In this document: positions 2,278 to 32,480 of the stretch, in pieces
Numbering within the stretch: the stretch's first letter is position 1
Layout of the letters: the number at the start of each line of letters is the position of its first letter
Source of the DNA: a virus
DNA length: 37,410 nt
Direction: 5' to 3' (one strand)
UHGV virus genome: UHGV-1374559
Notes under the pieces: model-generated
Seen by the model: the letters and a program-made list of their open reading frames with translations, nothing else
Database searches by the model: none
Told to the model about the DNA's origin: nothing
Position numbers and translations under genes: made by a program

Positions 2278-2414
2278 AATGTTATTTTTAGCGAATATAT
2301 TCAGCGTAGGACAGTTTTACAATCAAGCGAATATAAATAGGCGTAAAGAAAGAAAAACGGCTTAAAACGCATTTTAAAGCCTTAAAAAAAATCGATAGAA
2401 AGGGGAATCATTCA

Positions 2415-2684
2415 ATGCCGTATGTAGTGAAAATTTCAGCCTATCTTGGCAAAGATGGTCGACCAGTAGCCAATTTAAAAGATGCTGTGCTATTTGAGCA
2501 AAAAGAGATAGCAGCTATTGCAACAATCGTATCTGGCGGAACTGTTTCAGAAGTAAAGGAAGCCATCATAATGCCAGAAAAACCGAATAGGTATACAGCA
2601 AAATCTACCAAAGTAGATTTTAAAAAGGAACCAATTGAAAAAGCAACCAAAAGTAATCAAGCCTGGATGAAAGGGGCTAAATAA
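2415..2684 (+). CDS. hypothetical phage protein
   Basis: ORF with RBS AAAGGGGAAT upstream. No recognisable motifs. Confidence 0.4.
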   Translation: MPYVVKISAYLGKDGRPVANLKDAVLFEQKEIAAIATIVSGGTVSEVKEAIIMPEKPNRYTAKSTKVDFKKEPIEKATKSNQAWMKGAK

Positions 2685-2687
2685 GAA

Positions 2688-2858
2688 TGAAGTGTGTTAG
2701 ATGTCAAGATCAGCGTGTGATTTGGGGAAAAGACAGATTTAATTATGCAACGCTCGTTCCATGTCCTGAATGCAACAAAGATGGAAAAGCAGTTCGAGCG
2801 GAAACTGCGACCAAGGAAAGGGAGTTAAAACAATGCAATCACCAACAGCCCTGAATAA
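2688..2858 (+). CDS. small zinc-ribbon protein (56 aa; CxxC…CxxC)
   Basis: ATG at 2688 preceded by AAAGGGG. Two CxxC pairs (CVRC, CPEC). Shorter than the ORF-track cutoff. Its 3' end overlaps the next gene's start in another frame. Confidence 0.35.
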
Positions 2859-3297
2859 GCGAGGAAATAAAGTCACGATTGATGGTTACACATTTGATAG
2901 CCAGAAGGAAGCTAACTTTTATACAAAGTTTGTCAAAAATTGTGGGTTACCTTTTGAGGTACACCCAAGATTTACAATACACGAGAAGTGCGAAATACCA
3001 GGAGGTAACATTTCGAGCATTGCCTATTCGCCAGATTTTATCATCAAGGACCACGATGGCAATTGGCTACATGTAATCGATATAAAAAATAGTTTTGGAG
3101 CCTATGGCATTGATCAATCAAATAAGCTTAGATTTAGACTGTTTGCCATGAAATATGGTCATCCAGTCGAGGCGGTTGTTATTAGATCAAATGATTTTAA
3201 AGTCATTACACAAGGCGTAACTAAGCCGCTTAATGAGAAAAAACCATTTATAACCGATAATTTCGATTACGAATGGAAAGATGCAACTAATTATTAA
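2833..3297 (+). CDS. DUF1064-family protein (YqaN-like putative Holliday-junction resolvase)
   Basis: Start moved to ATG 2833 (RBS AAGGGAG upstream). Motif TIDGYTFDSQKEANFY is characteristic of DUF1064/YqaN-like phage proteins (from memory). Confidence 0.5.
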   Translation: MQSPTALNKRGNKVTIDGYTFDSQKEANFYTKFVKNCGLPFEVHPRFTIHEKCEIPGGNISSIAYSPDFIIKDHDGNWLHVIDIKNSFGAYGIDQSNKLRFRLFAMKYGHPVEAVVIRSNDFKVITQGVTKPLNEKKPFITDNFDYEWKDATNY

Positions 3298-3316
3298 AAG
3301 AAAGTAGGAAAATAAA

Positions 3317-3922
3317 ATGACAAAACAAGTAAATTTTAGACCAGAAGTGAAAAAAGTGACATCTAAATCAAACGGAAATATCGAAGTGCTATTAGTGGTT
3401 AGCAACGCTTCATTAAAAGGAAAATATGAAAGTTTAAACGAATTTTTAGGCAAAACAGTATCAACGACCATTGAGCCAGAAACAGTAGAATACAAGGTAC
3501 CAGTTAACAAGCAGACCAATAAGCCGAATGTCGAATATGTTGTAAATAACGACGGGACAGTTGAAGTTCTAAAAGAAGAACAAACTTCTTTAGAAATGGG
3601 CGATGATGTGCAAGAAGTCGAAGAAGTTGCTGTGCAAGTATCGAAAGAAACCATTGACGAATTCATAAAGAAAGCAACGACTATCGAATGGCCAGAATCA
3701 GTAACAATCAACGTTCGTGGCGTATTGCATCGAATAGATGAAGGGGAAGCGCTAGAAGAAATTGCGTCTGATCATGATGTTTCAGTTGAAAATCTAATCA
3801 ACCAAGTTGAACTTGCACGCCAACATTTTGCACCGTTTGCAGATTCTTGGAGCAAAAACAAAGAGAACATCATTTTCCCTGAAAAGACAGTTGAAGATGA
3901 TGAAGAAGAAATCGAAGAATAA
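3317..3922 (+). CDS. hypothetical acidic phage protein
   Basis: ORF with a very acidic C-terminus (EDDEEEIEE). No motifs recognised. Confidence 0.45.
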   Translation: MTKQVNFRPEVKKVTSKSNGNIEVLLVVSNASLKGKYESLNEFLGKTVSTTIEPETVEYKVPVNKQTNKPNVEYVVNNDGTVEVLKEEQTSLEMGDDVQEVEEVAVQVSKETIDEFIKKATTIEWPESVTINVRGVLHRIDEGEALEEIASDHDVSVENLINQVELARQHFAPFADSWSKNKENIIFPEKTVEDDEEEIEE

Positions 3923-3937
3923 TCTCGTAGAAAGTGA

Positions 3938-4144
3938 GTGTTCATTTTGCTGGAGATTTATTATACGCCAACATCCGCAATAATTGCGGATGCATTGGCT
4001 AAAACATATGAAGTCGTTTCTTTAGACAAAGCTAGAAATATTGCCAAGAAATTTAAGGCTAGTTTAAAGCAGAAAACGGATCTTTATGTGATTGAGGGAA
4101 TTTTAATTGATGCTGGTTATAAAAAAGAGCCAGTGAATTTGTGA
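3938..4144 (+). CDS. hypothetical small protein (GTG start)
   Basis: ORF with RBS GAAAGTGAG. No motifs recognised. Confidence 0.35.
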   Translation: MFILLEIYYTPTSAIIADALAKTYEVVSLDKARNIAKKFKASLKQKTDLYVIEGILIDAGYKKEPVNL

Positions 4145-4685: not shown

Positions 4686-4748
4686 TTCCTCCGGCTGTTG
4701 GTAATATTCTCGACACGAATATTATACCATAAACGGGGGAATCAAAGA

Positions 4749-5216
4749 ATGGTACTTTTTGACGTAAAGAAATATGAAACACCAGATGCAAAGGATGTAG
4801 ACATGGAACAAACGAAACATAACGTCAGTGTATTCTTGTCTGCGTACCTTGCTGCTAGATGTCGTGTTGGCCAGCCGAGGGAACCAAAAGTAACAGCTTC
4901 ATTCTCTTTGGTTCCACCATCAACGGCCAATAACGTTTTCGAAGCCGAACAAATGTTAATCCAGAAAGAAGAAGCACAAGAAGAGTTTGATTATCTTCAT
5001 AAGCTTTTTGTTAGAGGTTATTCTGCGATTCAGCATCCGCACAAACCAGATGTTACCGAGCGAAGAAAGAGAATCTTCTATGACCGTTATATCAACGGCA
5101 ATCCGATCTATCTAGCAGCGCAACGGAATTGCATCAGCGAAGAATCAGTGAAACAAGAATCTAATATGATTATTGTTCAATTTGCTTCGGCACTGGAACT
5201 GGTTGCTTTTAAGTAG
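4749..5216 (+). CDS. ArpU-family phage late transcriptional regulator
   Basis: Start moved to ATG 4749 (RBS GGGGGA upstream). Motif …VFLSAYLAARCRVGQP… and the position just upstream of the packaging module are typical of ArpU-like regulators in Firmicute siphoviruses. Confidence 0.55.
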   Translation: MVLFDVKKYETPDAKDVDMEQTKHNVSVFLSAYLAARCRVGQPREPKVTASFSLVPPSTANNVFEAEQMLIQKEEAQEEFDYLHKLFVRGYSAIQHPHKPDVTERRKRIFYDRYINGNPIYLAAQRNCISEESVKQESNMIIVQFASALELVAFK

Positions 5217-5517
5217 CCATTTATTACACTTTTTATACTTCTTTTATACACTTTATCTACACTTCATATACCTTTGAAACGGGTTATTATGATAGTGTCA
5301 AAAAAATAAGAAATGCGACACACTTACACAAATACATTAACGGAACGATTGCCTACTTATTTTTTTGATTTGAGATTACAAGGAAGTAAAAAAATTCTAC
5401 TTTCTTCGTTTAGTCACTTGTGATCTCATTTAGATTCTCTCGCAAACCACCAATTATAAAACTAAAGAAGTGAGGTGAATTTCCTCTCTCTTTTTTCTAC
5501 AGGTTTGCGAGAGTTAA

Positions 5518-5589
5518 TGGAGCATAGCTTAATCGGTAGAGCAGCGATCTCCAAAACCGTTAGTATAGGTTCGAGTCCTATTGTTCCAG
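5518..5589 (+). tRNA. tRNA-Trp (CCA anticodon)-like gene, no encoded CCA end, one A·C mismatch in the anticodon stem
   Basis: Folded by hand: acceptor TGGAGCA/TGTTCCA; D-arm GCTT-AATCGGTA-GAGC; anticodon arm GCGAT-CTCCAAA-ACCGT; variable loop TAGT; T-arm ATAGG-TTCGAGT-CCTAT; discriminator G. Closely parallels Bacillus-type tRNA-Trp. Confidence 0.5.
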
Positions 5590-5770
5590 TAAGTGGCATA
5601 AGCTACTTAAATAAAAAATCGTCAATAAGTCAAATGTAACTACCTTTACGATCAGATGACGGTTAAGATTTTCTTTCCTATCCTAGACTCCGCGTAAGAG
5701 TGCAGTCTTTTTCTTATTCTTTTTTTCAAAAATCTATAGTATTATAGAGAAAAAAAGAATGAGGTTATAC

Positions 5771-6952
5771 ATGATGAATATACAATACATTGGATTCAAT
5801 GAAGAAAATTTCGCAAGTGATATTATTACTTGTTCATCTATCCTAAGTCCAAAAGATTTTGATGATTATGATTTAAACTTTATAGATTTGGATAGTGAAG
5901 AATTATGGTCTGTACTAGAAAATAGCTTCTATCAATACGGAACGAAATATGCTAACGATTTTGTAACAATTCGCAAATTGATAGATAACTCTAAACAGAA
6001 TTTAGTAATTTCATTACCTAAGAATCAAATCTATCAATACGGATTAAAAGATTATCTTGAAAAAGTTCATAAGGGCATCGATTTATTATCTGGTATTACT
6101 ATTGAGCTAATGTATGGTGCAACTCAAACTAAGGTCAATAAAGGAACACTTAGCTCTGATTTTACAATTATGAATGATTCGACTTATTATAGCACGTTAA
6201 CCCAATCTATTAGGAGTAAAAAAGCTACTACAATAAACAGTGGTAATATCTTCGTGACAACACTAAGCATAAACAATTCAAAAGAACTAATGGATTTTTT
6301 AACTGAATTAAGATTAATCAAAAGTAAAACTGAAGAGATCCCAGAATGGATGGGGGAGGTTAAGATGTTCGATGACGTTAAACAGCTTGAAACTATTCAA
6401 ATGACAAAACAAGAAATATCTGATCTTGAAGATAGAATAGAGAAGGCTGAAACACAATTGAATGAGAATAAACGGATGAAATCTATTTTATATACTCAGT
6501 CTGATGAATTGGTTGAAGTTGTTTTTGAAATATTCAAAGAAATGCTAAATGTTGATTTATCAAGATTTGAAGATAAGAAAAAAGAAGATATTTCATTTTC
6601 TATAGGGAATAATGTTTTTATTGGAGAGATAAAAGGTAAAACAAGCAATGTAAAAACGTCTTTTTTATCTCAATTAGATAATCATTTCACGAATTTTATA
6701 GAAGACCATCCAGAAATCCCGGAAGAAAATATCTATAAATTGTTAATTATTAATCATCAAAGGAATAAAGCATTAAGCGAAAGAGATCCGGTGGATCAAA
6801 AACAGATTGATATTGCTAAAGGGAAATATGGCTCTCTTATTATAGAAACAAGTGAACTATTAAAATTATTAGAAAAGTATAGGGAAAATAATCTTTCTAG
6901 GGAAACAATTGCTGAATTGATTACGCAAAAAGGATTATTGAAAGTGGAATAA
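5771..6952 (+). CDS. standalone coiled-coil protein with C-terminal PD-(D/E)XK-like motif (candidate defence nuclease; moron)
   Basis: RBS GAGG 6 nt before ATG 5771. AT-rich. Central heptad-like region (…QEISDLEDRIEKAETQLNENKRMK…). C-terminus has D(ISFSIGNNVFIG)EIKGK then QLDNH, matching D…ExK…Q. Own terminator at 7006..7036. Confidence 0.45.
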   Translation: MMNIQYIGFNEENFASDIITCSSILSPKDFDDYDLNFIDLDSEELWSVLENSFYQYGTKYANDFVTIRKLIDNSKQNLVISLPKNQIYQYGLKDYLEKVHKGIDLLSGITIELMYGATQTKVNKGTLSSDFTIMNDSTYYSTLTQSIRSKKATTINSGNIFVTTLSINNSKELMDFLTELRLIKSKTEEIPEWMGEVKMFDDVKQLETIQMTKQEISDLEDRIEKAETQLNENKRMKSILYTQSDELVEVVFEIFKEMLNVDLSRFEDKKKEDISFSIGNNVFIGEIKGKTSNVKTSFLSQLDNHFTNFIEDHPEIPEENIYKLLIINHQRNKALSERDPVDQKQIDIAKGKYGSLIIETSELLKLLEKYRENNLSRETIAELITQKGLLKVE

Positions 6953-7005
6953 TACAGACGTGAAATCAAACATTGTTTTACAATAATGATTACACCTATG
7001 TACAA

Positions 7006-7036
7006 AAAGATCACACATTCTAGTGATCTTTTTTTG
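7006..7036 (+). terminator. rho-independent terminator (AAAGATCAC-loop-GTGATCTTT + T-run)
   Basis: 9-bp perfect stem 7006-7014 / 7023-7031 followed by TTTTTT. Confidence 0.7.
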
Positions 7037-7192
7037 TATATAAAAAAACACTAGAAATGGGAACTATTGGCTAGGTAGCATTCGTGCAAAAATTGTTGGT
7101 TGCTACTTACAAAAAGAATCTTCTACCCATAAATAGTATAGCAAAAAGTAATTTGCTGAATAAAATACATAAAAACAATTAGGAGAGAGAGT

Positions 7193-7414
7193 ATGAAAAA
7201 TTATTTGTTTGTATCGTTAACACGTAAATATCCGCCACCGAACCACTCGCTCGATGCATCACGTGTTGTAATATCTGTGAGAATAAAGAAGAATGCATCC
7301 ATTGTCGAAACGATGAGAGAATCTACAACAAAAGAGATTGATGCGGCCTATTACGGCGTCGGTTGTTGGGAAGATAAACATATACAAGAGAATATAAAGA
7401 AGTACGTGAGGTGA
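7193..7414 (+). CDS. hypothetical phage protein
   Basis: RBS AGGAGAGAG upstream. No motifs. Confidence 0.4.
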   Translation: MKNYLFVSLTRKYPPPNHSLDASRVVISVRIKKNASIVETMRESTTKEIDAAYYGVGCWEDKHIQENIKKYVR

Positions 7415-7420
7415 TAACAA

Positions 7421-7735
7421 ATGAGTAAAAAAGAACAGATTAAAAAACAGCAGGCACAGTTCTTAGAGATCATGAAGAAGGTTCGTGAGGAGAAAGATAT
7501 AGATGCGCTTGCAGAATTGTTTATTGAAATCATTTCGGTATATGGGCTGAAGATGGATGAGACATCAGCATTACTTTATTACGTTCAGAAAGAAACACTT
7601 GAAGCAGATCACAATGCACAGTTCTTAAAAGAACGATTGAAACTTGATGTTAAGTCGCTAGGTATTGAAGGTGTGCTGCAAGTACAACGTGCGTTGGTTA
7701 ACACTTACCTTTCTAATATTGCCAACAATGATTGA
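7421..7735 (+). CDS. hypothetical phage protein
   Basis: RBS GAGGTGA upstream. No motifs. Confidence 0.45.
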   Translation: MSKKEQIKKQQAQFLEIMKKVREEKDIDALAELFIEIISVYGLKMDETSALLYYVQKETLEADHNAQFLKERLKLDVKSLGIEGVLQVQRALVNTYLSNIANND

Positions 7736-8039
7736 TGTATCATCCAAACAAGCACGAGCAAAGTTCTATGGCTCATCAGAGTGGAGAAGATTAAGACAGC
7801 AATGTTTAGAGCGTGATCATTACGAATGCCAGTGGTGCAAACAAGAAGGTAAGTTAACAACCCAGTATGATTCTATTCTTGAAGTGGATCACATTAAAGA
7901 GTTGGAACATTATCCGCAGCATGCCTTGAATATAGACAACCTAAGAACATTGTGCAAGGACTGTCATAATAAACGGCACGGTAGATTTAACTATAGAGAA
8001 TCGAAAAGAAAAAGAAAGTGGGATGATGAATGGTGGTAG
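7728..8039 (+). CDS. HNH endonuclease (terminase-associated)
   Basis: Start moved to in-frame ATG 7728. Motifs …CQWCK…EVDHI…CKDCHNKRHG…. Position immediately upstream of terS/terL as in cos-type siphoviruses. Confidence 0.7.
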   Translation: MIDVSSKQARAKFYGSSEWRRLRQQCLERDHYECQWCKQEGKLTTQYDSILEVDHIKELEHYPQHALNIDNLRTLCKDCHNKRHGRFNYRESKRKRKWDDEWW

Positions 8040-8356
8040 AGGACAGTTTCAAATCGTTTGATAAAGTAAGTTTTGATTTGTCGAATCAATCAGATGCAAC
8101 TAGTTATTTCGTAACGATTCTTATTCCTGAGGGTTACTTAAACGAATTCGTTAGCGTTTATAGTGAAAATAATCCATTGAAAGAACATTTTGGAGTCGTG
8201 GGAGAAACACAGCTTAAAACTAAAGAAAGTGGTGGACAGCATACCCCCCATCGAAATATTTTGCCCTAAAGTGGGGACTGCGGGAACCGGTGGATGGGGT
8301 CAACTGTCTAAAAATATACGTTAAATTTTTTTATAGGGGGGTGATTGCTATTGAAA

Positions 8357-8668
8357 ATGGCAGATTTGAAAAAACAGTTGATGAGTCAAATTGACGAAAA
8401 CGATCAACTAGAAGTTGAAAAAGTCGAGAGATATCTTGATTTAGTAAAGCTTTATAAAAAAATGAATTCGTCTATTTCTAAGTATGGAACGATTGTAGAG
8501 TTTGAAAACGGAGCGCAGAAATACTTAAAAATCAATCCAGCAATCGCCGAAAAAGTTAAAATTTCACGTGCATTGATTGCTTTAGGAAAAGACCTTAACT
8601 TAGATGAATCAACAAAAATAGTGACTAGCGTTGATGATGATAATTATAGCGAGAGTGACTTAGTATGA
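8357..8668 (+). CDS. terS: terminase small subunit (P27-family-like)
   Basis: ATG 8357 with GGGGGGTGA RBS. About 100 aa. ATGA overlap with terL start. Confidence 0.55.
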   Translation: MADLKKQLMSQIDENDQLEVEKVERYLDLVKLYKKMNSSISKYGTIVEFENGAQKYLKINPAIAEKVKISRALIALGKDLNLDESTKIVTSVDDDNYSESDLV

Positions 8669-10344
8669 TTAAGCAAAAACATGTCGATTACTATATACAA
8701 CAATATAAAAAAGGTGAAATAAAACTTAATAAAGAAAGAATTCAACTAATAGAGTATCTAGAAAGAGATATACTTTCAAGAGATGATATATATTTTAATG
8801 ACAAAATGATAGACGATTGTATCAATTATGGTGAGAAATGGTTTTTTGAATTACAGCCATTTCAAAAATTTTTGATTGCTTTCGTCTTTTTGTATTTTAA
8901 AAAGAATAACAGAAATTTTTATCGTAAATTTCTGTGGATGTTTGGCCGTGGTGGTGGTAAAAATGGGCTTCTTTCTGTCGTTCTTAATTTTTTACAAACT
9001 GAATTACATGGAATTCTAGATTACAATATTTCGATTGTTGCAAATTCAGAAGATCAAGCAAAAACTTCTTTCGAAGAGATTTATAATACAATCAAACGAA
9101 ATAAAACACTTCAAAAAGCTTTTGAGTATGGAAAAACAGTTATAACCTCTAAAAAGACTGGCAGCTATATAAGATTTAGAACGTCGAATGGCGATACTAA
9201 AGATGGTTTAAGAGATGGAGCGGTAGCTTTCGACGAAATTCATCAATACCCTTCGAACAAAGATGTAAAAGTGCATATTTCTGGATTAGGAAAAAAGCCG
9301 AATCCTAGAGAATTTTATGTAGGAACAGATGGATATGTTCGAGAGGGATTTTTAGATTCTCTTAAAGAAAAAGCCAAAAGAGTGTTAAACGGTTCTAGTC
9401 GACCTAATGCTATTTTCCCTTTTATTTGCAAATTAGATTCAGAAGACCAAGTGACAGAATCAGAAAACTGGGAATTAGCAAATCCGATGTTTCATCAACC
9501 TTTATCAGAGTATGCCGAGAGCCTTTTAGAAACTATTTTTGAAGAATACGAAGACTTAGAGGACGATCCGTCAAATAGAGAAGAATTTATGACTAAGCGG
9601 ATGAATTTACCAGTTACAGATTTAGAAAGATCAGTGGCTAGTTACGAAGAAATAATGGACACCAATCGTCCTTTACCAAGTTTAGAAGGTAGACAAGCAA
9701 TTGGATGTTTGGACTTTGCCAGCTTGCGAGATTTTGCGGCATGTGGTCTTTTATTTAAAGATAGGGATGACTATGTTTTTAAAACACATTCATTTGTTAG
9801 AAAGCAATTTGCAGACATATATTATGGATATTCCAGGAAAGCATCAGAACAAACAAAAGAACGATTCGCACCGATAAAAGAATGGGAAAACAGAGGATTA
9901 TTATCTGTAGTTGATGGAGCTACAATTGAACCACAAACAGTTGTCGATTGGTTTGTTGAACAACGATATAAATACGGAGTTACAAAAATTGTTGCCGATA
10001 ATTTCAGAATGGATGTATTGAGACCGTTACTAATAGCTGCGGGATTTGAAGTGGTTGTGATAAAAAATCCTAGAGCAGTCGATAGTTTACTTGCACCGAG
10101 AATAGAAACGGCGTTTGCTAATAGACACATCATTTTTGGAGAAAATCCGTTAATGCGGTGGTACACGAATAATGTATTAGTAAAGACCAACAATGATGGA
10201 AATAAGACGTACTTAAAAAAAGAAGAAGTCAGAAGGAAAACAGATGGATTTAAAGCATTTGTATGCGGTATGTATTTAGCAGATGAACTCACAGATTATA
10301 ATTTTGAAGATGCATTCGATATATTAGAAGAATTAGACTTTTAA
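8665..10344 (+). CDS. terL: terminase large subunit
   Basis: Walker A-like FGRGGGKNG. Size 559 aa. Typical Terminase_1 organisation. Confidence 0.85.
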   Translation: MIKQKHVDYYIQQYKKGEIKLNKERIQLIEYLERDILSRDDIYFNDKMIDDCINYGEKWFFELQPFQKFLIAFVFLYFKKNNRNFYRKFLWMFGRGGGKNGLLSVVLNFLQTELHGILDYNISIVANSEDQAKTSFEEIYNTIKRNKTLQKAFEYGKTVITSKKTGSYIRFRTSNGDTKDGLRDGAVAFDEIHQYPSNKDVKVHISGLGKKPNPREFYVGTDGYVREGFLDSLKEKAKRVLNGSSRPNAIFPFICKLDSEDQVTESENWELANPMFHQPLSEYAESLLETIFEEYEDLEDDPSNREEFMTKRMNLPVTDLERSVASYEEIMDTNRPLPSLEGRQAIGCLDFASLRDFAACGLLFKDRDDYVFKTHSFVRKQFADIYYGYSRKASEQTKERFAPIKEWENRGLLSVVDGATIEPQTVVDWFVEQRYKYGVTKIVADNFRMDVLRPLLIAAGFEVVVIKNPRAVDSLLAPRIETAFANRHIIFGENPLMRWYTNNVLVKTNNDGNKTYLKKEEVRRKTDGFKAFVCGMYLADELTDYNFEDAFDILEELDF

Positions 10345-26104: not shown

Positions 26105-27364
26105 ATGAAAAAGAAAATTTTAGCAGGAGCGCTTGTCGCTCTGTTTTTTATGCCTACCGGTGTATTTGCTGCAAAAGGAGATCAAGGTGTGGATTGGGCG
26201 ATTTACCAAGGCGAACAAGGCCGTTTTGGCTATGCACATGATAAATTCGCTATCGCTCAAATTGGTGGATACAATGCCAGCGGTATTTATGAACAATACA
26301 CATACAAAACGCAAGTAGCAAGTGCCGTCGCTCAAGGCAAACGCGCACATACCTATATCTGGTACGATACTTTTGGTAGCATGGATATTGCAAAAACAAC
26401 AATGGATTACTTCTTGCCACGTATTCAAACGCCTAAAAATTCCATTGTTGCATTAGATTTTGAACATGGAGCTAGTCCTGATGTAAACGCAAATACAGAA
26501 ACGATTTTGTATGGTATGCGCCGTATCAAACAAGCAGGATATACACCAATGTATTATAGTTACAAGCCTTTCACGTTGCAATACGTGGACTATCAGCGAA
26601 TTATTAAAGAGTTCCCTAATTCCTTATGGATTGCTGCCTATCCTAGTTATGAGGTAACGCCAGAACCATTGTATAACTATTTTCCAAGTATGGACGGTAT
26701 CGCAATTTGGCAATTTACCTCAACTTATATTGCAGGCGGTTTAGATGGTAACGTAGACCTAACAGGAATTACGGATAACGGATACACGGCTACTGACAAA
26801 CCAGAAACGGACACACCAGCAACAGAAGTTGGTGAAAAAACTGAAAAAACACCAAATTCAGATGTTAAAGTTGGCAATATGGTCAAAGTAAAATTTAATG
26901 TTGATGCTTGGGCAACTGGCGAAGCTATTCCGCAATGGGTAAAAGGAAACAGCTATAAAGTACAAGAAGTAACTGGAAGCAGAGTATTGCTAGAAGGCAT
27001 CTTATCATGGATTAGTAAAGGCGATATTGAATTATTGCCAGATGCAACAGTTGTTCCTGATAAACAGCCAGAAGCAACACACGTAGTTCAACATGGCGAA
27101 ACATTATCAAGTATTGCTTACCAACATGGCACAGACTATCAAACGTTAGCGGCATTAAATGGATTGGCCAATCCAAATCTAATCTATCCTGGTCAAGTTT
27201 TGAAGGTAAATGGATCGGCAGCAAGTAATGTTTACACGGTTCAATACGGTGATAATTTATCTAGCATTGCGGCTAAACTTGGCACGACTTATCAAACATT
27301 GGCAGCTTTAAACGGATTAGCAAATCCTAACTTGATTTATCCTGGTCAAACATTGAACTATTAA
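26105..27364 (+). CDS. endolysin: GH25 muramidase + two C-terminal LysM repeats
   Basis: N-terminal GVDWAIYQG…DFEHGAS is a GH25 signature. Tandem …[38 protein letters not shown]… repeats are LysM. Confidence 0.85.
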
Positions 27365-27500
27365 AAAAATTCCTCTCTACAAAGAGAGGGAATACATAAA
27401 GAAATGACATTGTTACTTTGAATAGAATAAGTTTTTTTTATCTTTTTTATGGTATTCTAGTTGCAGAGATATTTTATTATTGAAAAAGGATTGAGAAAAA

Positions 27501-28487
27501 ATGGGTGAAAAAGGAAAATCCATTGATGGTTTGATGAGACACATAAGAAATAACCACAATGTCAGCATTAAAGGTAGTAATGACAAGCAAAACTTACTAA
27601 ATATGGGATATTATCATGGATACAAAGCATCGATGTATATTAAAGAACGAAAAAATATGCAAGAGTTCAAAGATTTTAATGAAGTTAAAGCTGTATATGA
27701 TTTTGATATTGAAATGAAGACAATATTTTATCCTATGTTGGTAAAAATTGAAACTTCTTTGAAAAATAGGCTGATAGATTTTCTCGTAAAAGATGATCAA
27801 TGTGATTTAGAATATATTTATAAAACAAAACTAAGAGACTACGCATCAAAAGAAGTTGGTTCAAAAAAATATAAAAAATATCTTGCAAGAAACCTTAAAT
27901 TGAGAGAAAAGATAGATGAAACTATAGCATACAATTATGGTAAAGGTCATCCGGCTGTACAACATTTTTTTCACTGCAACAAACCACTACCTTTATGGGC
28001 ATATTTTGAAATAATTACATTTGGGGAGTTTGGAAACTTTGTAGCATGTCTAAATGAAGAATATAGAATTATGTTTACTAGCAGTCTGGAATTGCATCAT
28101 CGCGGTTTAAATCAAAACGGAAGAATATTAGAAAATATTATTTTCTGTTTAACAGGCCTCAGAAATGCCACTATGCATAATTCGGTGGTATTTGATTGTA
28201 GATTTAATGATTCTTCAACTTCGAATCAAGTAAAGCAGTATCTTGAACAAGTAACAGATATAAAAAATATTTCATTTGAAACGTTAACAGACTTCATTAT
28301 TCTATTAGTCGCGTTACTAAAAAGAGTGAGAATTACCAAAACAGAGCTGAATAGATATGTTTCGGATTTTGATAAAAGTAGAGAAAAACTTTTTAATAGT
28401 GTACCATTTAACACTTATACAGCAATTATGGGGACAGATGCAAAAAATAAGATTTCTAGTCTTAAATACTTTATAAAAAACAATTAA
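27501..28487 (+). CDS. Abi_2-family abortive infection protein (AbiD/AbiF-like)
   Basis: 328 aa, AT-rich, own transcription unit between lysin and att. Abi_2 assignment is from motif memory, not a search. Confidence 0.5.
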   Translation: MGEKGKSIDGLMRHIRNNHNVSIKGSNDKQNLLNMGYYHGYKASMYIKERKNMQEFKDFNEVKAVYDFDIEMKTIFYPMLVKIETSLKNRLIDFLVKDDQCDLEYIYKTKLRDYASKEVGSKKYKKYLARNLKLREKIDETIAYNYGKGHPAVQHFFHCNKPLPLWAYFEIITFGEFGNFVACLNEEYRIMFTSSLELHHRGLNQNGRILENIIFCLTGLRNATMHNSVVFDCRFNDSSTSNQVKQYLEQVTDIKNISFETLTDFIILLVALLKRVRITKTELNRYVSDFDKSREKLFNSVPFNTYTAIMGTDAKNKISSLKYFIKNN

Positions 28488-28563
28488 AATAGTTTACTTT
28501 TCTTTTTCTATATGCGATAATCTTATTATCAAATAGCGGTACATTACTTCGGTTTGTATCTAA

Positions 28564-28592
28564 AACACTCCATGCGTGGGGTGTTTTTTATT
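28564..28592 (+). terminator. rho-independent terminator (AACACTCCA-tgcg-TGGGGTGTT + T-run)
   Basis: 9-bp stem with one G·U pair, followed by TTTTTTATT. Confidence 0.65.
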
Positions 28593-28743
28593 GGGCTAAT
28601 AGCCTTAGGTGGTTAGAGCAAATGGCTTATAACCTTTCGCTCACAGGTTCTGCAGGTACATAAAAATATCCCTCCCTTTTTTAAAGGAAAGTACGCAAAA
28701 TTATTTGTTACTCATTATATAATTTGGTCAGGGATTGTGGTAA

Positions 28744-28772
28744 CTTGAAAATTTGTAGAGTAATGTTTATTA
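28744..28772 (+). promoter_or_regulatory. sigma70-like promoter TTGAAA-N17-TATTAT for the STAS/GHKL operon
   Basis: Hexamers at 28744-28749 and 28767-28772 with 17-bp spacing, about 38 nt upstream of ATG 28810. Confidence 0.45.
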
Positions 28773-28809
28773 TAAATAGTATCAATCTTACAAGAATTGG
28801 AGATAAACA

Positions 28810-29724
28810 ATGTCATTAAGTGTAAAAATACCTTCATCTTTAACAAAATATAAGATTCCACTAGTAGTGAACGAAATACTTACTCCTGACTTAGAGCCTA
28901 AGTCAGACGAAATTATTTTTGATTTGACTGAAGTTACTTGGATTGATCCTTCAGGAGTGGCAGCACTATATAATATTGGGAAGTGGATCGATTGTTTCCC
29001 CAATGACAATATAAAGGTAACCTTCAAGATTGCTGAAAAAGGTACAGGTTCGTTCAAGAATAAAAAAGCTATGGAGTATCTCGAAGATTGTGGTTTTTTC
29101 GAAGAGTTTTTTGGAGCAAGTGACATTTATAAAGAGAATCATGCATATAGAACTACAACACTTCCAATACGAACGTTGGGAGTTGAGCAAAGCTTTAGTT
29201 GGAGATACAGTGTTTTGAAAAGGTGGCTTCAAGCGTCTACGGGGAGGAACCTAGAATTTTCAGGTATACAGGTAGGTGTAGAAGAAATTTTTAACAACAT
29301 TAGGGATCATTCTAATAGGAATATTGGTTGTGTTTTTGGACAGTATTTCCCTAATAATGACGATAGATTAGTTATAACAATTTCCGATTTTGGTTTAGGC
29401 ATCCCCACAGTTATGCGACAGAAGTATGGGGATTTTAAAGATCATGAATTAGTTTTGAAAGCATTAGAAGAAGGAGTATCAACTGAGTCTACACCTGGTA
29501 ATCGAGGTGCTGGATTGCCGAATATAATGAGAAGTTTGACCTCCAATAAGATTGGGACTGTGCATATACTGACAAATTATGCTAAAATTGTTATTAAAGA
29601 TGGGAAAGTTCATTCAGCTATTACAACAAAAAATTTTTATCCAGGAACTTTCTTTGATATAGAGATTGATATTAATAATGATAAATTATATGAAGATGAA
29701 GAAGAGGAGGAATTCACATGGTAA
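28810..29724 (+). CDS. STAS-like domain fused to GHKL (HATPase_c) anti-sigma-factor-type Ser kinase-like ATPase
   Basis: RBS GGAG. N-box-like VEEIFNNIRDHS. G1 box ISDFGLGIP (DxGxG). G2 box GNRGAGLPNIM. N-terminal FDLTEVTWIDPSGVAAL resembles the STAS DxSG phospho-site region. Confidence 0.55.
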   Translation: MSLSVKIPSSLTKYKIPLVVNEILTPDLEPKSDEIIFDLTEVTWIDPSGVAALYNIGKWIDCFPNDNIKVTFKIAEKGTGSFKNKKAMEYLEDCGFFEEFFGASDIYKENHAYRTTTLPIRTLGVEQSFSWRYSVLKRWLQASTGRNLEFSGIQVGVEEIFNNIRDHSNRNIGCVFGQYFPNNDDRLVITISDFGLGIPTVMRQKYGDFKDHELVLKALEEGVSTESTPGNRGAGLPNIMRSLTSNKIGTVHILTNYAKIVIKDGKVHSAITTKNFYPGTFFDIEIDINNDKLYEDEEEEEFTW

Positions 29725-30029
29725 ATATTGAAGTGAAAACGGAAATTGTATCATATGCTTCTAATGATGACGGGAAAAAACTCTATGTCTTAATTTATAG
29801 AGCGTTGATGGACGGTGACAATGTGAATGTTTCATTTAAAGGAATAGACGGATTAAGTTCCTCTTTTATCAATTCAGCGTTCATAGAATTGTTAAATAAT
29901 TTCGATTTCGAGTATATAAAAAGAAAATTGAGTTTTTCACATTCAAATAAACAAATTAATTCTTTAATTTTAAGTCGATTCAAATTTGAAACAAAAAAAT
30001 GTACAGTAAAAAGACCCCAGCTAGTCTAG
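29718..30029 (+). CDS. small STAS-like protein (DUF4325-like), translationally coupled partner
   Basis: ATG overlaps the upstream stop (ATGGTAA). RBS GAGGAGG. About 100 aa with FKGIDGLSSSF motif, typical of small STAS-like partners. Confidence 0.5.
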   Translation: MVNIEVKTEIVSYASNDDGKKLYVLIYRALMDGDNVNVSFKGIDGLSSSFINSAFIELLNNFDFEYIKRKLSFSHSNKQINSLILSRFKFETKKCTVKRPQLV

Positions 30030-30039
30030 GGTCTTTTTT
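30011..30039 (+). terminator. rho-independent terminator (AAGACCC-loop-GGGTCTT + T-run) overlapping operon stop codon
   Basis: 7-bp stem 30011-30017 / 30029-30035 followed by T-run to 30039. Confidence 0.65.
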
Positions 30040-30264
30040 ATGAGTAATGACAAAAAAGATAGATTTATATATCGCAAAATAAGAAAATAAATATATACTA
30101 ACTTTTAAGTAAAATAGTAATTCTTTAAGGGATGTACAATCGTATTGTTAAGGTAATACATCTTTTGCAAGCAGTCTGTGTAGTAGTTATCTTAAAGTTG
30201 TCTACTCCATACATAATGAAACCAAACTCAATTAGAACAAGCTAGTTGAGTTTTTTTGTTTTCA

Positions 30265-30336
30265 GAACTATTGGTTCAGTTGGTTAGAGCCAACCGCTCA
30301 TAGCGGTTAGGTACAGTTCGAGTCCTGTATGGTCCA
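30265..30336 (+). tRNA. tRNA-like sequence, CAT anticodon (Met/Ile2-type), degenerate (T-arm one base short, A·C in acceptor): probable attP core / tRNA 3' remnant
   Basis: Hand fold: acceptor GAACTAT/ATGGTCC with 6/7 pairs; D-arm GTTC-AGTTGGTTA-GAGC; anticodon arm AACCG-CTCATAG-CGGTT; TTCGAGT T-loop but 5' T-stem lacks one G. Lies adjacent to the integrase region. Confidence 0.4.
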
Positions 30337-30342
30337 TAGTTA

Positions 30343-30384
30343 AACACCTACCTCTGTTTCTTATGAGAGATAGGTGTTTTTTAT
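30343..30384 (+). terminator. long hairpin terminator following the tRNA-like element
   Basis: AACACCTA/TAGGTGTT 8-bp stem, extended by CTCT/AGAG, followed by TTTTTTATT. Confidence 0.5.
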
Positions 30385-30455
30385 TATGTTAATATTTTTT
30401 TGTTGAAAAACAGAACAAACGTTCGTATAATGTTTCTGATAGGAGAGTGTATCAG

Positions 30456-30941
30456 ATGGTAAGACGAACTAAAAAAGAGTTTAAACCGTATAACGACTAT
30501 GTTGACCGTCCTTTTGAGTTAAAATGGCCTACAGCTTTTCCGTTAGGAGAGTTGGCAGAAGCAATAAAGAGTACAGATGAATATCACGCTCGCAATATTG
30601 AGAGACTGCCACAGCAATCACAGCGACAAATAGAATATTTTTTAGATCGCTCTATTAAGCAAAATAAAGTTTTAGAAATCCAATTAAATTCTTTAGATGA
30701 ATATGAACGAGTTAAGCCCCACGTTTTCGGTGTTTTCCGTGGGATGGCAGAATTCGATGTTGTGCTGATTGGTGAACAAGAAATCGATTTTTATGATATT
30801 AGAAACATTCAGATTCATAATTTCACTAAATGGAGTGAAGAATATACACCTGAAGAAAATCCGTTTGAGGAAGAACCAGAGCACTGCGAAACAATAGATG
30901 AATTTGTGGACGAATATTTCGATGATAAATGGATAGAATAA
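30456..30941 (+). CDS. YolD-like family protein (orphan, no adjacent Y-family polymerase)
   Basis: ATG 30456 with AGGAGAG RBS. …FELKWP…VFGVFRGMAEFDVVLIGEQEIDFYDIRNIQI pattern resembles YolD-like proteins (from memory). Confidence 0.4.
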   Translation: MVRRTKKEFKPYNDYVDRPFELKWPTAFPLGELAEAIKSTDEYHARNIERLPQQSQRQIEYFLDRSIKQNKVLEIQLNSLDEYERVKPHVFGVFRGMAEFDVVLIGEQEIDFYDIRNIQIHNFTKWSEEYTPEENPFEEEPEHCETIDEFVDEYFDDKWIE

Positions 30942-30953
30942 TTAAAAATGTAA

Positions 30954-30991
30954 AAGTTCTACTTCTCAATCATGGAAGGTAGAGCTTTTTT
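30954..30991 (+). terminator. rho-independent terminator after the YolD-like gene
   Basis: 9-bp stem AAGTTCTAC/GTAGAGCTT with one G·U, followed by TTTTTT. Confidence 0.6.
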
Positions 30992-31266
30992 GTATGTAAA
31001 ATATGCGAATAGTATTTGATGAAATAAAAATAGACTTTGAAATGATCAGAATGCAAAACCAGTGCAAAATATTTTGCATTTCTCTACATTTTTATCCTTT
31101 TCTTATAGAAATTAAAAGAGCTAAAACCTTATAAAATAAAGGTTTTAGTTCTTTTTTGTTTTTCTCTACTTTTCTAAAAATGGAGACGGCGGTCGTAAAA
31201 CCTAGCTTGTAAATGCTGGTTTTATGGCTGTTTTTAACTACTTGATGCAAAAATAATGCAAAAAAA

Positions 31267-32397
31267 TTATACATACATTTGTTTCATCACTTCATTAACA
31301 GCATTACTTTCTTTTTGTTCCATCTCGTCTAAAATGTGTTGATAGGTTTGTAAAGTGGTTACAATGTCCTTATGTCCAAGGCGACGAGATACATATTTTA
31401 TATTTATTCCTTTATACAACATTATTGAAGCATGGGTATGCCTTAAACCATGACAAGTCAATTCTTTTGTACCGATCTTTCTACAGAATTTACGAAGGAC
31501 TTTATTTACAGCTGTATTCGATACAAGTTCCATATTGTCATTTAAAAATACTAAATTATTTTCGTTGCGTAGACCAGATTTTAAATAATATTCTTTTTGA
31601 TGTAACTGTAATTTCTTTAATAAATCGAGCGTATCATCATCAATAGTGATTATTCTTTTTGATTGATAATTTTTCGTATTAGAGAATGTATTTGTATATT
31701 TATAGTCCCAAGTTTTATTTACTTTTACAGTTTTATTTTTGAAGTCGATACAGTCCCAAGTCATGCCTATAATTTCTGAAAAACGGCAACCAGTCGCAAT
31801 ACCAAACAGAATAATAAATCGAGAAGTATAAGTGGGTTTTATACCTTGTAATATTTCGTGAACTAGATGGATAGATTCTTGATAATTCAAATATTTCAAT
31901 TCCTCGTGCTTAGGATTCTTTTTGCCCATTGCTTGTACTCGATAGGTAGGGTCTCTATGAATAATGCCTTCTTCCAAAGCATCTTTAAGAGCAGCTCGCA
32001 TATACGTATGATGTTTTTTCACTGAAGCTGTAGCGTGTGTTTCCCCATAGTCATTCAGGGCCTTTTGATATTCTTGTCGAGTCAATTCTTTTAATTTTGT
32101 ATCAGGAAAATATTTCTCACTAAAATCAACAGCCCGACGAATATCACCGTCATTGTCTTGTGATAACTTGCCTTTCCTGTAAACTTCAAACCAATTTCGA
32201 AAATACTCATGAAATAATTTTTCGCCTTCTTTTAGTGAGTATCCTTTAGAATACCTAGCTTCAATTTCTGAGGCTGCCAATTGCGCTTCTTTTTTTGTTG
32301 AAAACCCATTGACGCTTTTTGTTTTATATCGGCCATCTTTATCTTTATAAGAGACTCGAAATTGCCATCCGCTTTTCAATTTTTTTATACTTGCCAT
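31267..32397 (-). CDS. int: tyrosine integrase (phage integrase family)
   Basis: Start set to MASIKKLKSG (RBS GGGGTGA). N-terminal arm-binding/SAM-like region. C-terminal …HGLRHTHAS…LGHKDIVTTLQTYQHI catalytic motifs. Confidence 0.85.
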   Translation of the reverse strand: MASIKKLKSGWQFRVSYKDKDGRYKTKSVNGFSTKKEAQLAASEIEARYSKGYSLKEGEKLFHEYFRNWFEVYRKGKLSQDNDGDIRRAVDFSEKYFPDTKLKELTRQEYQKALNDYGETHATASVKKHHTYMRAALKDALEEGIIHRDPTYRVQAMGKKNPKHEELKYLNYQESIHLVHEILQGIKPTYTSRFIILFGIATGCRFSEIIGMTWDCIDFKNKTVKVNKTWDYKYTNTFSNTKNYQSKRIITIDDDTLDLLKKLQLHQKEYYLKSGLRNENNLVFLNDNMELVSNTAVNKVLRKFCRKIGTKELTCHGLRHTHASIMLYKGINIKYVSRRLGHKDIVTTLQTYQHILDEMEQKESNAVNEVMKQMYV

Positions 32398-32480
32398 TGT
32401 ATCACCCCAAATATTCACTTAAAAACCCCTAGCATGAATCGAACATGCTAGAACTCACCAGAGAGGGGATAAGAAAAAAA

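What the first reader, a model, noticed from the sequence alone, without database searches (positions are those of the whole stretch)
5217..7036. AT-rich standalone module between arpU and the packaging genes: tRNA-Trp-like gene plus a 393-aa coiled-coil protein with a C-terminal PD-(D/E)XK-like nuclease motif and its own terminator
What the sequence shows: a long AT-rich non-coding stretch, then a tRNA-like gene, then an ORF (5771..6952) with its own GAGG RBS and a perfect 9-bp-stem terminator at 7006..7036.

The protein has:
- an N-terminal domain of about 190 aa;
- a central heptad-rich coiled coil;
- a C-terminal region with D…(V)FIGEIKGK…QLDNH, matching the D–ExK–Q core of restriction-endonuclease-fold nucleases.

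Its position and composition mark it as a moron rather than a conserved morphogenesis or packaging gene. Single-gene nuclease defences of this size with a C-terminal PD-(D/E)XK domain exist (for example Shedu/DUF4263-type), so a defence role is plausible. I could not match it to a specific family by eye.
Basis: partly seen in the sequence, partly recalled or inferred. Interest (0 to 1): 0.7.

Follow-up and report, generated by a model that had tools for sequence, protein, structure and literature searches.

The report
Unnamed FokI-like nuclease in prophage hotspot
An Enterococcus prophage carries, in a swap-prone slot before its DNA-packaging genes, an unnamed two-domain enzyme whose DNA-cutting half resembles the FokI restriction enzyme and whose relatives often sit inside bacterial restriction operons, so it is probably a new anti-virus defence gene.

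Summary
tRNA-Trp (5518-5589), a 393-aa ORF (5771-6952) with a GAGG ribosome-binding site, and a terminator (7004-7033) are all present. The ORF has 28.7% GC against 35.4% for the other genes.

The protein matches nothing in Pfam, NCBIfam, PHROGs, PADLOC or PDB sequences. It nevertheless belongs to a large family of about 400-aa proteins, all unnamed (459 cluster representatives at E<=1e-30).

A confident AlphaFold model splits into two parts:
- an N-terminal domain with a class-I glutamine-amidotransferase-like fold but no catalytic Cys/His;

D273, E286 and K288 are essentially invariant in 277 members.

The gene is accessory. Near-identical phages carry other cassettes in the same slot, and it is absent from 50,697 GenBank phage records. 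In 16-19 of 86 loci it is embedded between hsdS and hsdR of Type I R-M operons. It has no conserved partner elsewhere.

The tRNA and the nuclease are separable cassettes, not one module. It is not Shedu or HamA.

Best reading: a stand-alone, sensor-gated defence nuclease of an undescribed family. No defence function has been tested.

The parts
5217..5516 (+). Non-coding stretch after arpU, shared by all cassette variants. It holds three direct repeats of TACACTT..TATAC (5225-5271), a promoter-like site (5263-5290) and a two-hairpin structured element (5371-5513). It is the left anchor of the variable slot, not part of the nuclease cassette.
   Evidence: Aligns at about 95% identity with IME_EF3 and with the E. 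faecalis prophage L010 up to position 5516. Repeats. Promoter-like site. RNA fold z -4.45, with 2 compensatory pairs in phiFL1A.
5518..5589 (+). tRNA-Trp (anticodon CCA). It is an independent cassette in the same slot.
   Evidence: ARAGORN. Rfam RF00005, 61.1 bits. Absent from L010, which carries the same nuclease. Replaced by tRNA-Asn in phiFL1A and SEsuP-1, which lack the nuclease.
5761..5764 (+). GAGG ribosome-binding site, six bases upstream of the ATG at 5771.
   Evidence: Read directly from the sequence.
5771..6952 (+). 393-aa protein of an unnamed family: an N-terminal sensor-like domain, a long helix and a FokI-like PD-(D/E)XK nuclease domain.
   Evidence: ORF. 277 homologues at E<=1e-3, all unnamed and without a Pfam domain. 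459 cluster representatives at E<=1e-30. AlphaFold model with pLDDT 88.5.
5771..6325 (+). N-terminal domain (aa 1-185). It has a class-I glutamine-amidotransferase-like (flavodoxin-like) alpha/beta fold without a catalytic triad. Proposed role: sensor or regulatory domain.
6374..6490 (+). Long helix (aa 202-240) with heptad-spaced conserved hydrophobic residues (209, 216, 223, 230) and invariant N233 and K237. Possible dimerisation element. Probably the extended first helix of the FokI-like domain.
6500..6949 (+). C-terminal PD-(D/E)XK nuclease domain (aa 244-393). Secondary structure runs helix, two strands (a short one and a long one that may be a hairpin), helix, strand, helix, strand.
6587..6589 (+). 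Codon for D273, the proposed metal-binding Asp of the PD motif, preceded by E272.
   Evidence: D in 277 of 277 full-length members. Lies at the start of strand 274-278.
6626..6634 (+). Codons for E286-I287-K288, the proposed (D/E)xK catalytic motif.
   Evidence: E in 276 of 277 and K in 277 of 277 members. Lies within strand 281-291.
7004..7036 (+). Intrinsic terminator that closes the nuclease cassette.
   Evidence: 11-bp stem, 8-nt loop and T-run. The E. avium prophage copy has its own terminator in the same place. The R-M-embedded copy has none.
7037..7192 (+). Right-hand spacer of the cassette. Homology with IME_EF3 resumes exactly at 7193, the ATG of the next ORF.
   Evidence: blastn junction mapping. 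The stretch is continuous with the nuclease gene in L010.

Best explanation
ORF 5771-6952 encodes a stand-alone, horizontally mobile nuclease of an undescribed family. Carried on the prophage, it most likely defends the lysogen, and so the prophage, against other phages or invading DNA.

**Shown**
- The C-terminal half has a restriction-endonuclease (PD-(D/E)XK) fold, closest to the FokI/BspD6I cleavage domain, with an invariant D273...E286-x-K288 site.
- The N-terminal half has a glutamine-amidotransferase-like fold that has lost the Cys-His-Glu triad but keeps a conserved polar patch.
- The gene is an exchangeable cassette with its own terminator, in a variable slot between the late regulator ArpU and the terminase genes.
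- Relatives are repeatedly embedded between hsdS and hsdR of Type I R-M operons. Elsewhere they have no conserved partner.

**Inferred**
- The N-terminal domain is a sensor that holds the nuclease off until it binds a signal: a phage protein, a small molecule, or a change in an R-M complex.
- Activation lets two nuclease domains pair, possibly through the long heptad helix. FokI-type domains need this pairing to cut both strands.
- Phage DNA, or all DNA in the cell, is then cleaved. This either restricts the invader directly or aborts the infection.
For: **Nuclease fold**
- AlphaFold pLDDT 88.5.
- Foldseek: FokI E 2e-4.
- Catalytic D/E/K invariant in 277 members.
- The F. vincentii homologue gives a weak REase_AHJR-like Pfam hit (E 0.008).

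**N-domain**
- GATase1-like fold.
- No conserved Cys or His, yet a nearly invariant polar set.

**Accessory and mobile**
- IME_EF3 carries a different cassette in the same slot.
- phiFL1A and SEsuP-1 carry yet other genes there.
- No tblastn hit in 50,697 phage records.
- Low GC.
- The family spans Bacillota, Campylobacter, Fusobacterium, Neisseriaceae, Cloacimonadota, Deferribacteraceae and Methanobrevibacter.

**Defence association**
- 16 loci have a complete HsdM-HsdS-X-HsdR arrangement, 2 more are cut by contig ends, and 1 has a variant Type I arrangement, out of 86 loci. Pfam confirms this on L023 and L057.
- This is the position prrC holds in EcoprrI (my own knowledge).
- Embedding in Type I R-M is the published 'guilt-by-embedding' criterion (bioRxiv 10.1101/2024.01.29.577857).
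- The F. vincentii copy is adjacent to a PADLOC PDC-S20 gene (E 9e-53) and a weak Lit-like match (E 0.0019).

**No obligate partner**
- 140 neighbours outside R-M operons hit 168 Pfam families, none in more than 3 neighbours.

**Three unrelated prophage lineages hold the gene in the same slot**
- E. faecalis, E. avium and C. scindens prophages all carry it between the late regulator and TerS.
Against: - No experiment or published phenotype exists for any member.
- PADLOC, including its 145 embedding-derived candidates, gives no hit.
- Resemblance to FokI is at fold level only. Pfam PF09254 does not match. Profile-profile hhalign against a FokI-family alignment is not significant (E 0.044, probability 1.2%). 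Pairwise alignment is no better than shuffles.
- The protein is acidic throughout: median net charge is about -4 for the N-domain, -3 for the helix region and -10 for the C-domain. No DNA-binding domain is evident, so the way it engages its substrate is unexplained.
- The sensor role of the N-domain, dimerisation through the helix, and the trigger are all inference.
- Whether the gene is expressed in the lysogen is unknown. No convincing sigma-70 promoter was found directly upstream.
- The R-M-embedded members cluster in one part of the family tree, though mixed with non-embedded ones. They are therefore not 16 independent events, and the window's Enterococcus clade is not itself R-M-embedded.
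Confidence: 0.55

Rival explanations
1. It is a solitary Type IV-like (modification-dependent) restriction endonuclease. The N-terminal domain reads modified bases in incoming phage DNA, and the FokI-like domain cuts nearby, constitutively and without killing the cell.
For: - The nuclease is solitary, with no cognate methyltransferase in the window and none conserved elsewhere.
- Type IV enzymes are typically linked to, or embedded in, Type I R-M loci. An example is the Type I-embedded GmrSD-like system of V. cholerae VPI-2 (PMC11411939, listed).
- A sensor domain joined to a nuclease domain is the modular plan of modification-dependent enzymes (PMC12191111).
Against: - The N-domain has a glutamine-amidotransferase-like fold. 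To my knowledge this is not a known modified-base reader such as SRA, EVE, YTH or winged helix.
- The N-domain is acidic (median pI 5.4), which is unusual for a DNA reader.
- No known reader domain was detected by Pfam.
Confidence: 0.15
2. It is a phage life-cycle nuclease, expressed with the late genes downstream of ArpU. It might degrade host or competitor DNA, or assist DNA processing before packaging.
For: - The gene lies on the same strand between the late activator and the terminase genes in three unrelated prophage lineages.
- A promoter-like site and repeats follow arpU.
- The C. scindens copy has no terminator before TerS.
Against: - Near-identical phages lack the gene and carry unrelated cassettes.
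- It is absent from 50,697 deposited phage genomes.
- Most family members are outside prophages, including about 20% inside Type I R-M operons and others in plain chromosomal sites.
- The two enterococcal copies scanned, the window's and the E. avium one, end in their own terminator.
Confidence: 0.1
3. It is a selfish free-standing homing endonuclease that spreads by cutting the empty slot in related phages.
For: - Presence varies among closely related phages at a fixed site next to conserved genes.
- An HNH endonuclease lies nearby.
- PD-(D/E)XK homing endonucleases exist (my own knowledge).
Against: - The slot is never simply empty. It holds alternative cassettes.
- The protein has no recognisable DNA-binding module.
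- The family's fixed two-domain architecture is conserved across phyla, inside R-M operons and between housekeeping genes. That is not the distribution expected of a phage homing endonuclease.
Confidence: 0.05
4. It is a PrrC-like guard. The protein is kept latent by a Type I R-M complex and is released when a phage anti-restriction protein disables that complex. The prophage copies would work with a host-encoded R-M system.
For: - Sixteen loci place the gene exactly between hsdS and hsdR, co-oriented and without a terminator before hsdR.
- This is the prrC position (my own knowledge).
- Ronin and PrrC are precedents for R-M-guarded effectors (bioRxiv 10.1101/2023.04.06.535777).
Against: - About three quarters of the loci, including the window, have no Type I genes nearby.
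- There is no similarity to PrrC: no ABC-ATPase domain, and a different nuclease fold.
Confidence: 0.12

Closest known systems
FokI cleavage domain and the BspD6I subunits (Type IIS restriction/nicking enzymes; Pfam PF09254 Endonuc-FokI_C)
   Different: No sequence-level relationship could be shown: Pfam gives no hit, hhalign is not significant, and pairwise alignment has z -0.9. FokI has three N-terminal DNA-recognition subdomains and a partner methyltransferase. This protein has a glutamine-amidotransferase-like N-domain and no methyltransferase.
Shedu (SduA, DUF4263) and other single-protein defence nucleases with variable N-terminal sensors
   Same: The overall logic is the same: one polypeptide, an N-terminal regulatory or sensor domain, and a C-terminal PD-(D/E)XK nuclease. 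Both are found on mobile elements and in defence contexts.
PrrC/RloC and other genes embedded in Type I R-M operons (including the PADLOC 'PDC' candidates of Payne et al. 2024)
   Same: Many family members occupy the hsdS-hsdR gap, as prrC does. Embedding is the published criterion for predicting defence genes.
   Different: PrrC is an ABC-ATPase plus anticodon RNase, whereas this protein is a restriction-fold nuclease. It matches none of the PADLOC models, PDCs included. Most members, including the window's copy, are not embedded.
Class-I glutamine amidotransferases (PdxT/Pdx2, HisH) and non-catalytic relatives (ThuA-like, GH42 middle domain, IFT52 GIFT domain)
   Different: The Cys-His-Glu triad is absent. 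The conserved P83-(Q)-N85 lies on the loop after strand 77-81. By analogy with the fold this may be where the nucleophile elbow sits, but the alignments give no residue correspondence, so that is inference. To my knowledge this fold has not been described fused to a nuclease.

Membership tests
PD-(D/E)XK nuclease superfamily | Core alpha-beta-beta-beta-alpha-beta restriction-endonuclease fold | tested here: met
PD-(D/E)XK nuclease superfamily | Conserved acidic residue followed by a (D/E)-x-K motif on adjacent strands | tested here: met
   D273 in 277 of 277, E286 in 276 of 277 and K288 in 277 of 277 members. The residues lie at or within strands 274-278 and 281-291.
PD-(D/E)XK nuclease superfamily | Metal-dependent nucleic-acid cleavage | not testable with these tools
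   Needs purified protein and catalytic mutants.
FokI cleavage domain family (Pfam PF09254) | Significant sequence or profile match to the family | tested here: not met
   No Pfam hit at E<=10. hhalign of A1 against a 15-sequence FokI-family alignment gives E 0.044 and probability 1.2% over 33 columns only. Pairwise z is -0.9.
FokI cleavage domain family (Pfam PF09254) | Closest three-dimensional similarity | tested here: met
FokI cleavage domain family (Pfam PF09254) | Double-strand cleavage requires dimerisation of two catalytic domains | not testable with these tools
   Only a monomer model could be made. The heptad-spaced hydrophobic residues in helix 202-240 are compatible with dimerisation but do not show it.
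Shedu (SduA / DUF4263) | Match to the DUF4263 / SduA profile | tested here: not met
   PADLOC gives 0 families at E<=10. The Pfam hit list has no DUF4263.
Hachiman (HamA DUF1837 + HamB helicase) | HamA profile match and an adjacent HamB helicase | tested here: not met
   No PADLOC hit. No conserved helicase neighbour: among 140 neighbours, DEAD matches 2 and ResIII matches 2.
Class-I glutamine amidotransferase | GATase1 alpha/beta fold | tested here: met
Class-I glutamine amidotransferase | Catalytic Cys-His-Glu triad | tested here: not met
   No Cys column at >=30% frequency in the N-domain. The only His column is position 25, at 53%.
Type IV (modification-dependent) restriction enzyme | Solitary nuclease with no cognate methyltransferase | tested here: met
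   No methyltransferase among the neighbouring genes scanned in the window. Only 2 of 140 non-R-M neighbours each match EcoRI_methylase and N6_N4_Mtase.
Type IV (modification-dependent) restriction enzyme | Recognised modified-base reader domain, and cleavage that depends on modification | tested here: inconclusive
   No reader domain was found by Pfam, and the N-domain fold is not a known reader. A new reader cannot be excluded. The activity itself is not testable here.
Defence candidates by 'guilt-by-embedding' (Payne et al. 2024; PADLOC PDC models) | Found embedded within a known multi-gene defence system | tested here: met
   16 complete and 2 truncated HsdM-HsdS-X-HsdR loci, plus 1 variant. 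Criterion as stated in 10.1101/2024.01.29.577857.
Defence candidates by 'guilt-by-embedding' (Payne et al. 2024; PADLOC PDC models) | Match to an existing PDC model | tested here: not met
   PADLOC v2.0.0, which contains PDC-S and PDC-M models (seen), gives no hit for this protein.
PrrC-type R-M-guarded effector | ABC-ATPase N-domain plus anticodon-nuclease C-domain | tested here: not met
   No ABC or PrrC Pfam or PADLOC hit. The folds differ. Only the operon position is shared.
tRNA (Rfam RF00005) | Covariance-model score above the gathering threshold, with an anticodon call | tested here: met
   61.1 bits against 29. ARAGORN calls Trp, anticodon CCA.

The most novel reading that the evidence does not exclude
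The family is a new kind of guard nuclease. A degenerate glutamine-amidotransferase-like domain senses either a phage-made small molecule or protein, or the disabling of a Type I R-M complex. This releases a FokI-type domain that dimerises and shreds DNA. In effect it would be a DNA-cutting counterpart of PrrC that also works alone when carried by prophages.
Probability: 0.15. Interest if true: 0.75.

Novelty: new variant of a known kind. Interest (0 to 1): 0.55.

Why it matters
If confirmed, this would add a widespread defence family (hundreds of sequence clusters across several bacterial phyla and a methanogen) that current defence-finding tools miss. The family is common in human and animal gut Clostridia and in E. 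faecalis prophages. It would shape which therapeutic phages can infect lysogenic E. faecalis strains. It would also provide a natural FokI-like cleavage module under the control of a non-DNA-binding sensor domain, which is of interest for engineering. Finally, it marks the ArpU-terminase boundary of Bacillota prophages as a cassette-exchange hotspot worth mining, and it shows that genes embedded in Type I R-M operons of uncultured Clostridia still hold unlisted candidates.

Tried and rejected
**Sequence libraries.** Pfam, PADLOC, PHROGs and NCBIfam gave no meaningful hit. A family-profile search against PDB sequences gave only a spurious histone hit, E 0.77.

**Homology to FokI at sequence level.** I then built a FokI-family alignment and ran hhalign and pairwise alignment. 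Neither was significant. The claim therefore stays at fold level.

**AlphaFold-database Foldseek.** The library was not available.

**Shedu and HamA.** Rejected: no profile hits.

**Active amidotransferase.** Rejected: no triad.

**Obligate partner gene (antitoxin, methyltransferase or helicase).** Rejected: neighbours outside R-M operons are heterogeneous. The 73-aa ORF downstream (7193-7414) is also present in IME_EF3, which lacks the nuclease.

**tRNA-nuclease functional unit.** Rejected: each occurs without the other.

**Literature.** Seven full-text searches found no paper describing this family. END nucleases are PLD plus iEndoIII, so unrelated. The metagenomic-selection paper matched 'FokI' only through an author name, Fokine.

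**Weak Rfam hits.** RsaD and SCARNA7 fall below their gathering scores and were treated as chance.
Full report
**1. What is in the sequence**

The window is a temperate Enterococcus faecalis siphophage or prophage. Megablast finds only Enterococcus phages, the best being IME_EF3 at about 94% identity. The gene order is typical: replication genes, DUF1064, then ArpU at 4698-5216 (TIGR01637, 48.2 bits against a cut-off of 43.1). After the region of interest come an HNH endonuclease (7665-8039), TerS (8345-8668) and TerL (8665-10344).

- tRNA-Trp (CCA) at 5518-5589 (ARAGORN; Rfam 61.1 bits);
- a 393-aa ORF at 5771-6952, with GAGG six bases upstream;
- a terminator at 7004-7033.

The ORF has 28.7% GC against 35.4 +/- 3.0% for the other 38 ORFs (z -2.3). 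GC3 is not unusual.

**2. The protein family**

No curated library recognises the protein. Pfam, PADLOC, PHROGs, NCBIfam and PDB sequences give nothing meaningful. It is nevertheless far from an orphan.
- A word-indexed search found 277 relatives, all about 390-425 aa, all without a Pfam domain, and named 'hypothetical protein' wherever they carry a name.
- An exhaustive profile search of 1.84 billion cluster representatives found 459 at E<=1e-30. The best 150 all match end to end.
- A scan of one genome per species found it in Lachnospiraceae, Oscillospiraceae, Erysipelotrichales, Tenericutes, Streptococcus, Campylobacter concisus, a Neisseriaceae MAG, Cloacimonadota, Deferribacteraceae and Methanobrevibacter. 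A further copy is in Fusobacterium vincentii.

**3. Structure**

An AlphaFold model built on a 32-sequence alignment is confident within domains (pLDDT 88.5). The low pTM of 0.54 means the arrangement of the domains relative to each other is uncertain.

D273, K288 and G289 occur in 277 of 277 full-length members; E286 and Q301 in 276 of 277. D273 sits at the start of one strand, and E286-x-K288 lies within the next. This is the canonical PD-(D/E)XK geometry.

The N-domain has no conserved Cys or His, so it is not an amidotransferase. It does keep a nearly invariant polar set (Q5, D31, N36, D63, N85, K93, T118, S146, K151, T153). That argues for a conserved binding site.

Helix 202-240 carries conserved hydrophobic residues every seven positions. 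This is compatible with a coiled coil but does not prove one.

I could not raise the FokI resemblance to sequence homology. Pfam FokI_C does not hit. hhalign against a purpose-built FokI-family profile is not significant. Pairwise alignment is no better than shuffles.

**4. Is it a core phage gene or a moron?**

It is a moron in a cassette-exchange slot.
- IME_EF3 matches the window up to 5515 and again from 7193. In between it carries an unrelated 247-aa protein with hydrophobic, possibly membrane-spanning N-terminal segments (by eye), plus a YjcQ-like gene.
- Other E. faecalis prophages carry the same nuclease (98% identical), but a 248-aa gene replaces most of the tRNA.
- phiFL1A and SEsuP-1 carry tRNA-Asn and three other small genes there.

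The tRNA and the nuclease are therefore independent cassettes, not one module.

No homologue exists in 50,697 GenBank phage records. Yet in E. avium and Clostridium scindens prophages, whose terminases are unrelated, homologues sit in the same place, just after the late regulator (DUF722 or a sigma-70 region-4 protein) and before TerS. The E. avium copy also ends in its own terminator.

**5. Context outside phages**

I called ORFs on 86 loci and clustered the neighbours. One pattern stands out. In 16 loci the gene lies between hsdS and hsdR of a co-oriented Fic-HsdM-HsdS-X-HsdR operon. Two further loci are cut by contig ends, and one has a different Type I arrangement. Pfam confirms the assignments, and no terminator precedes hsdR.

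This is the position prrC occupies in EcoprrI (my own knowledge). It is also exactly the 'guilt-by-embedding' criterion by which Payne et al. derived the PADLOC PDC candidates (10.1101/2024.01.29.577857). This family matches none of those models.

Further context:
- In the family tree the embedded members are mixed with non-embedded ones.
- Outside R-M operons, 140 neighbours hit 168 Pfam families, none in more than three neighbours. There is therefore no obligate partner.
- The F. vincentii copy sits beside a PDC-S20 KAP-type NTPase (E 9e-53) and a protein with a weak Lit match (E 0.0019).
- C. concisus copies are single-gene insertions between housekeeping genes.

**6. Mechanism**

*Shown.* The protein has a restriction-fold domain with an intact, invariant catalytic motif. 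It has a conserved but non-catalytic N-terminal alpha/beta domain. The gene is mobile, needs no partner, and is strongly associated with Type I R-M operons and prophage accessory slots.

*Inferred.* The N-domain gates the nuclease in response to a phage-derived cue. FokI-type domains have one active site and must pair to cut both strands (established for FokI; my own knowledge), and the heptad helix could mediate that pairing. The outcome would be restriction of the invader or abortive infection.

*Weak points.*
- The protein is acidic throughout and has no evident DNA-binding domain.
- Expression timing is unknown.
- Nothing has been tested experimentally.

*Rivals.* These are a Type IV-like enzyme with a new kind of reader domain, a PrrC-like R-M guard, a late-expressed life-cycle nuclease, and a homing endonuclease. 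The last two are disfavoured by the gene's distribution.

**7. Verdict**

Three corrections apply.
- It is FokI-like rather than Shedu- or HamA-like.
- The N-domain has a glutamine-amidotransferase-like fold.
- The tRNA is a separate cassette.

This is a new, unlisted family within a known kind of system, the single-protein sensor-nuclease defences. It is a good candidate for experimental testing, but defence is not yet demonstrated.

Noticed in passing
window 5371-5513 (+): A two-hairpin structured element lies in the conserved spacer just upstream of the tRNA and cassette junction. RNA folding gives -43.8 kcal/mol, z -4.45, with 0 of 200 shuffles as stable. Its second stem is a perfect 12-bp inverted repeat (5437-5448 / 5502-5513). 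phiFL1A keeps this stem with two compensatory C-G to U-A changes. There is no Rfam match. Only four sequences were compared.
   Followed up: partly
window 5225-5290 (+): Three direct repeats of TACACTT..TATAC (5225-5271) follow the arpU stop codon and overlap a promoter-like site, TTCATA-16-TATTAT (5263-5290). They are conserved in IME_EF3, and in L010 with one repeat missing. This may be the ArpU-dependent late promoter.
   Followed up: no
window 5516-5569, compared with L001 and L010: The recombination junctions of the variable slot fall at the tRNA. IME_EF3 diverges at 5516/5517, just before the tRNA. L010 diverges at 5516/5517 and rejoins at 5569, inside the tRNA, so it retains only the 3' 21 nt. 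Related phages hold tRNA-Asn in place of tRNA-Trp at the same spot and share the downstream flank (80-92% identity over window 5464-5712). The tRNA ends appear to act as crossover points.
   Followed up: partly
window 27400-31000: A second low-GC accessory region lies between the endolysin (26105-27364; GH25 lysozyme plus LysM by PDB match) and a reverse-strand 383-aa ORF at 31267-32418 (function not examined). It holds ORFs 27501-28487 (28.8% GC), 28810-29724 and 29718-30029 (28.5% GC), tRNA-Met at 30265-30336, and ORF 30447-30941. The two larger ORFs have no PDB sequence match.
   Followed up: partly
L001 (IME_EF3, PQ520141) 2410-4002: An alternative cassette occupies the same slot. It encodes a 247-aa protein with hydrophobic, possibly membrane-spanning N-terminal segments (by eye), with no Pfam, PADLOC or NCBIfam hit, and a 72-aa YjcQ-like protein. 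A 248-aa gene (no PADLOC hit; relationship to the IME_EF3 gene not tested) precedes the nuclease in E. faecalis prophages L010-L013.
   Followed up: partly
L023 3863-4918 and the corresponding cluster in 15 loci: A roughly 350-aa Fic/DOC-domain gene leads most of the Type I R-M operons that embed the nuclease homologue (Fic-HsdM-HsdS-X-HsdR). Several of these operons hold additional small unannotated ORFs (100-340 aa) between hsdS and the homologue.
   Followed up: no
L014 (NZ_CP084075.1, Fusobacterium vincentii) 5360-9221: This 2.1-Mb record is labelled as a plasmid but looks like a chromosome. It carries the homologue next to a divergently oriented PDC-S20 KAP-type NTPase (PADLOC E 9e-53) and a 329-aa HExxH protein with a weak Lit-like match. 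The pair sits between housekeeping genes, which suggests a small defence islet.
   Followed up: partly
L015 (Klebsiella pneumoniae plasmid pLH375-4) 732-2465: A 577-aa hypothetical protein shares only the helix and nuclease half (25% identity to aa 204-390) behind a different, longer N-terminal region. It lies beside a RelE/ParE toxin-antitoxin pair. This suggests the nuclease module combines with other N-terminal domains.
   Followed up: partly
L007 12932-14443: In a small integrase-bearing element in a Clostridia contig that also carries a nuclease homologue, a 503-aa gene hits Pfam PF05183, which by my recollection is the eukaryotic-type RNA-dependent RNA polymerase family. It follows a RepB-like regulator. 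That family would be unusual in a bacterial mobile element.
   Followed up: no
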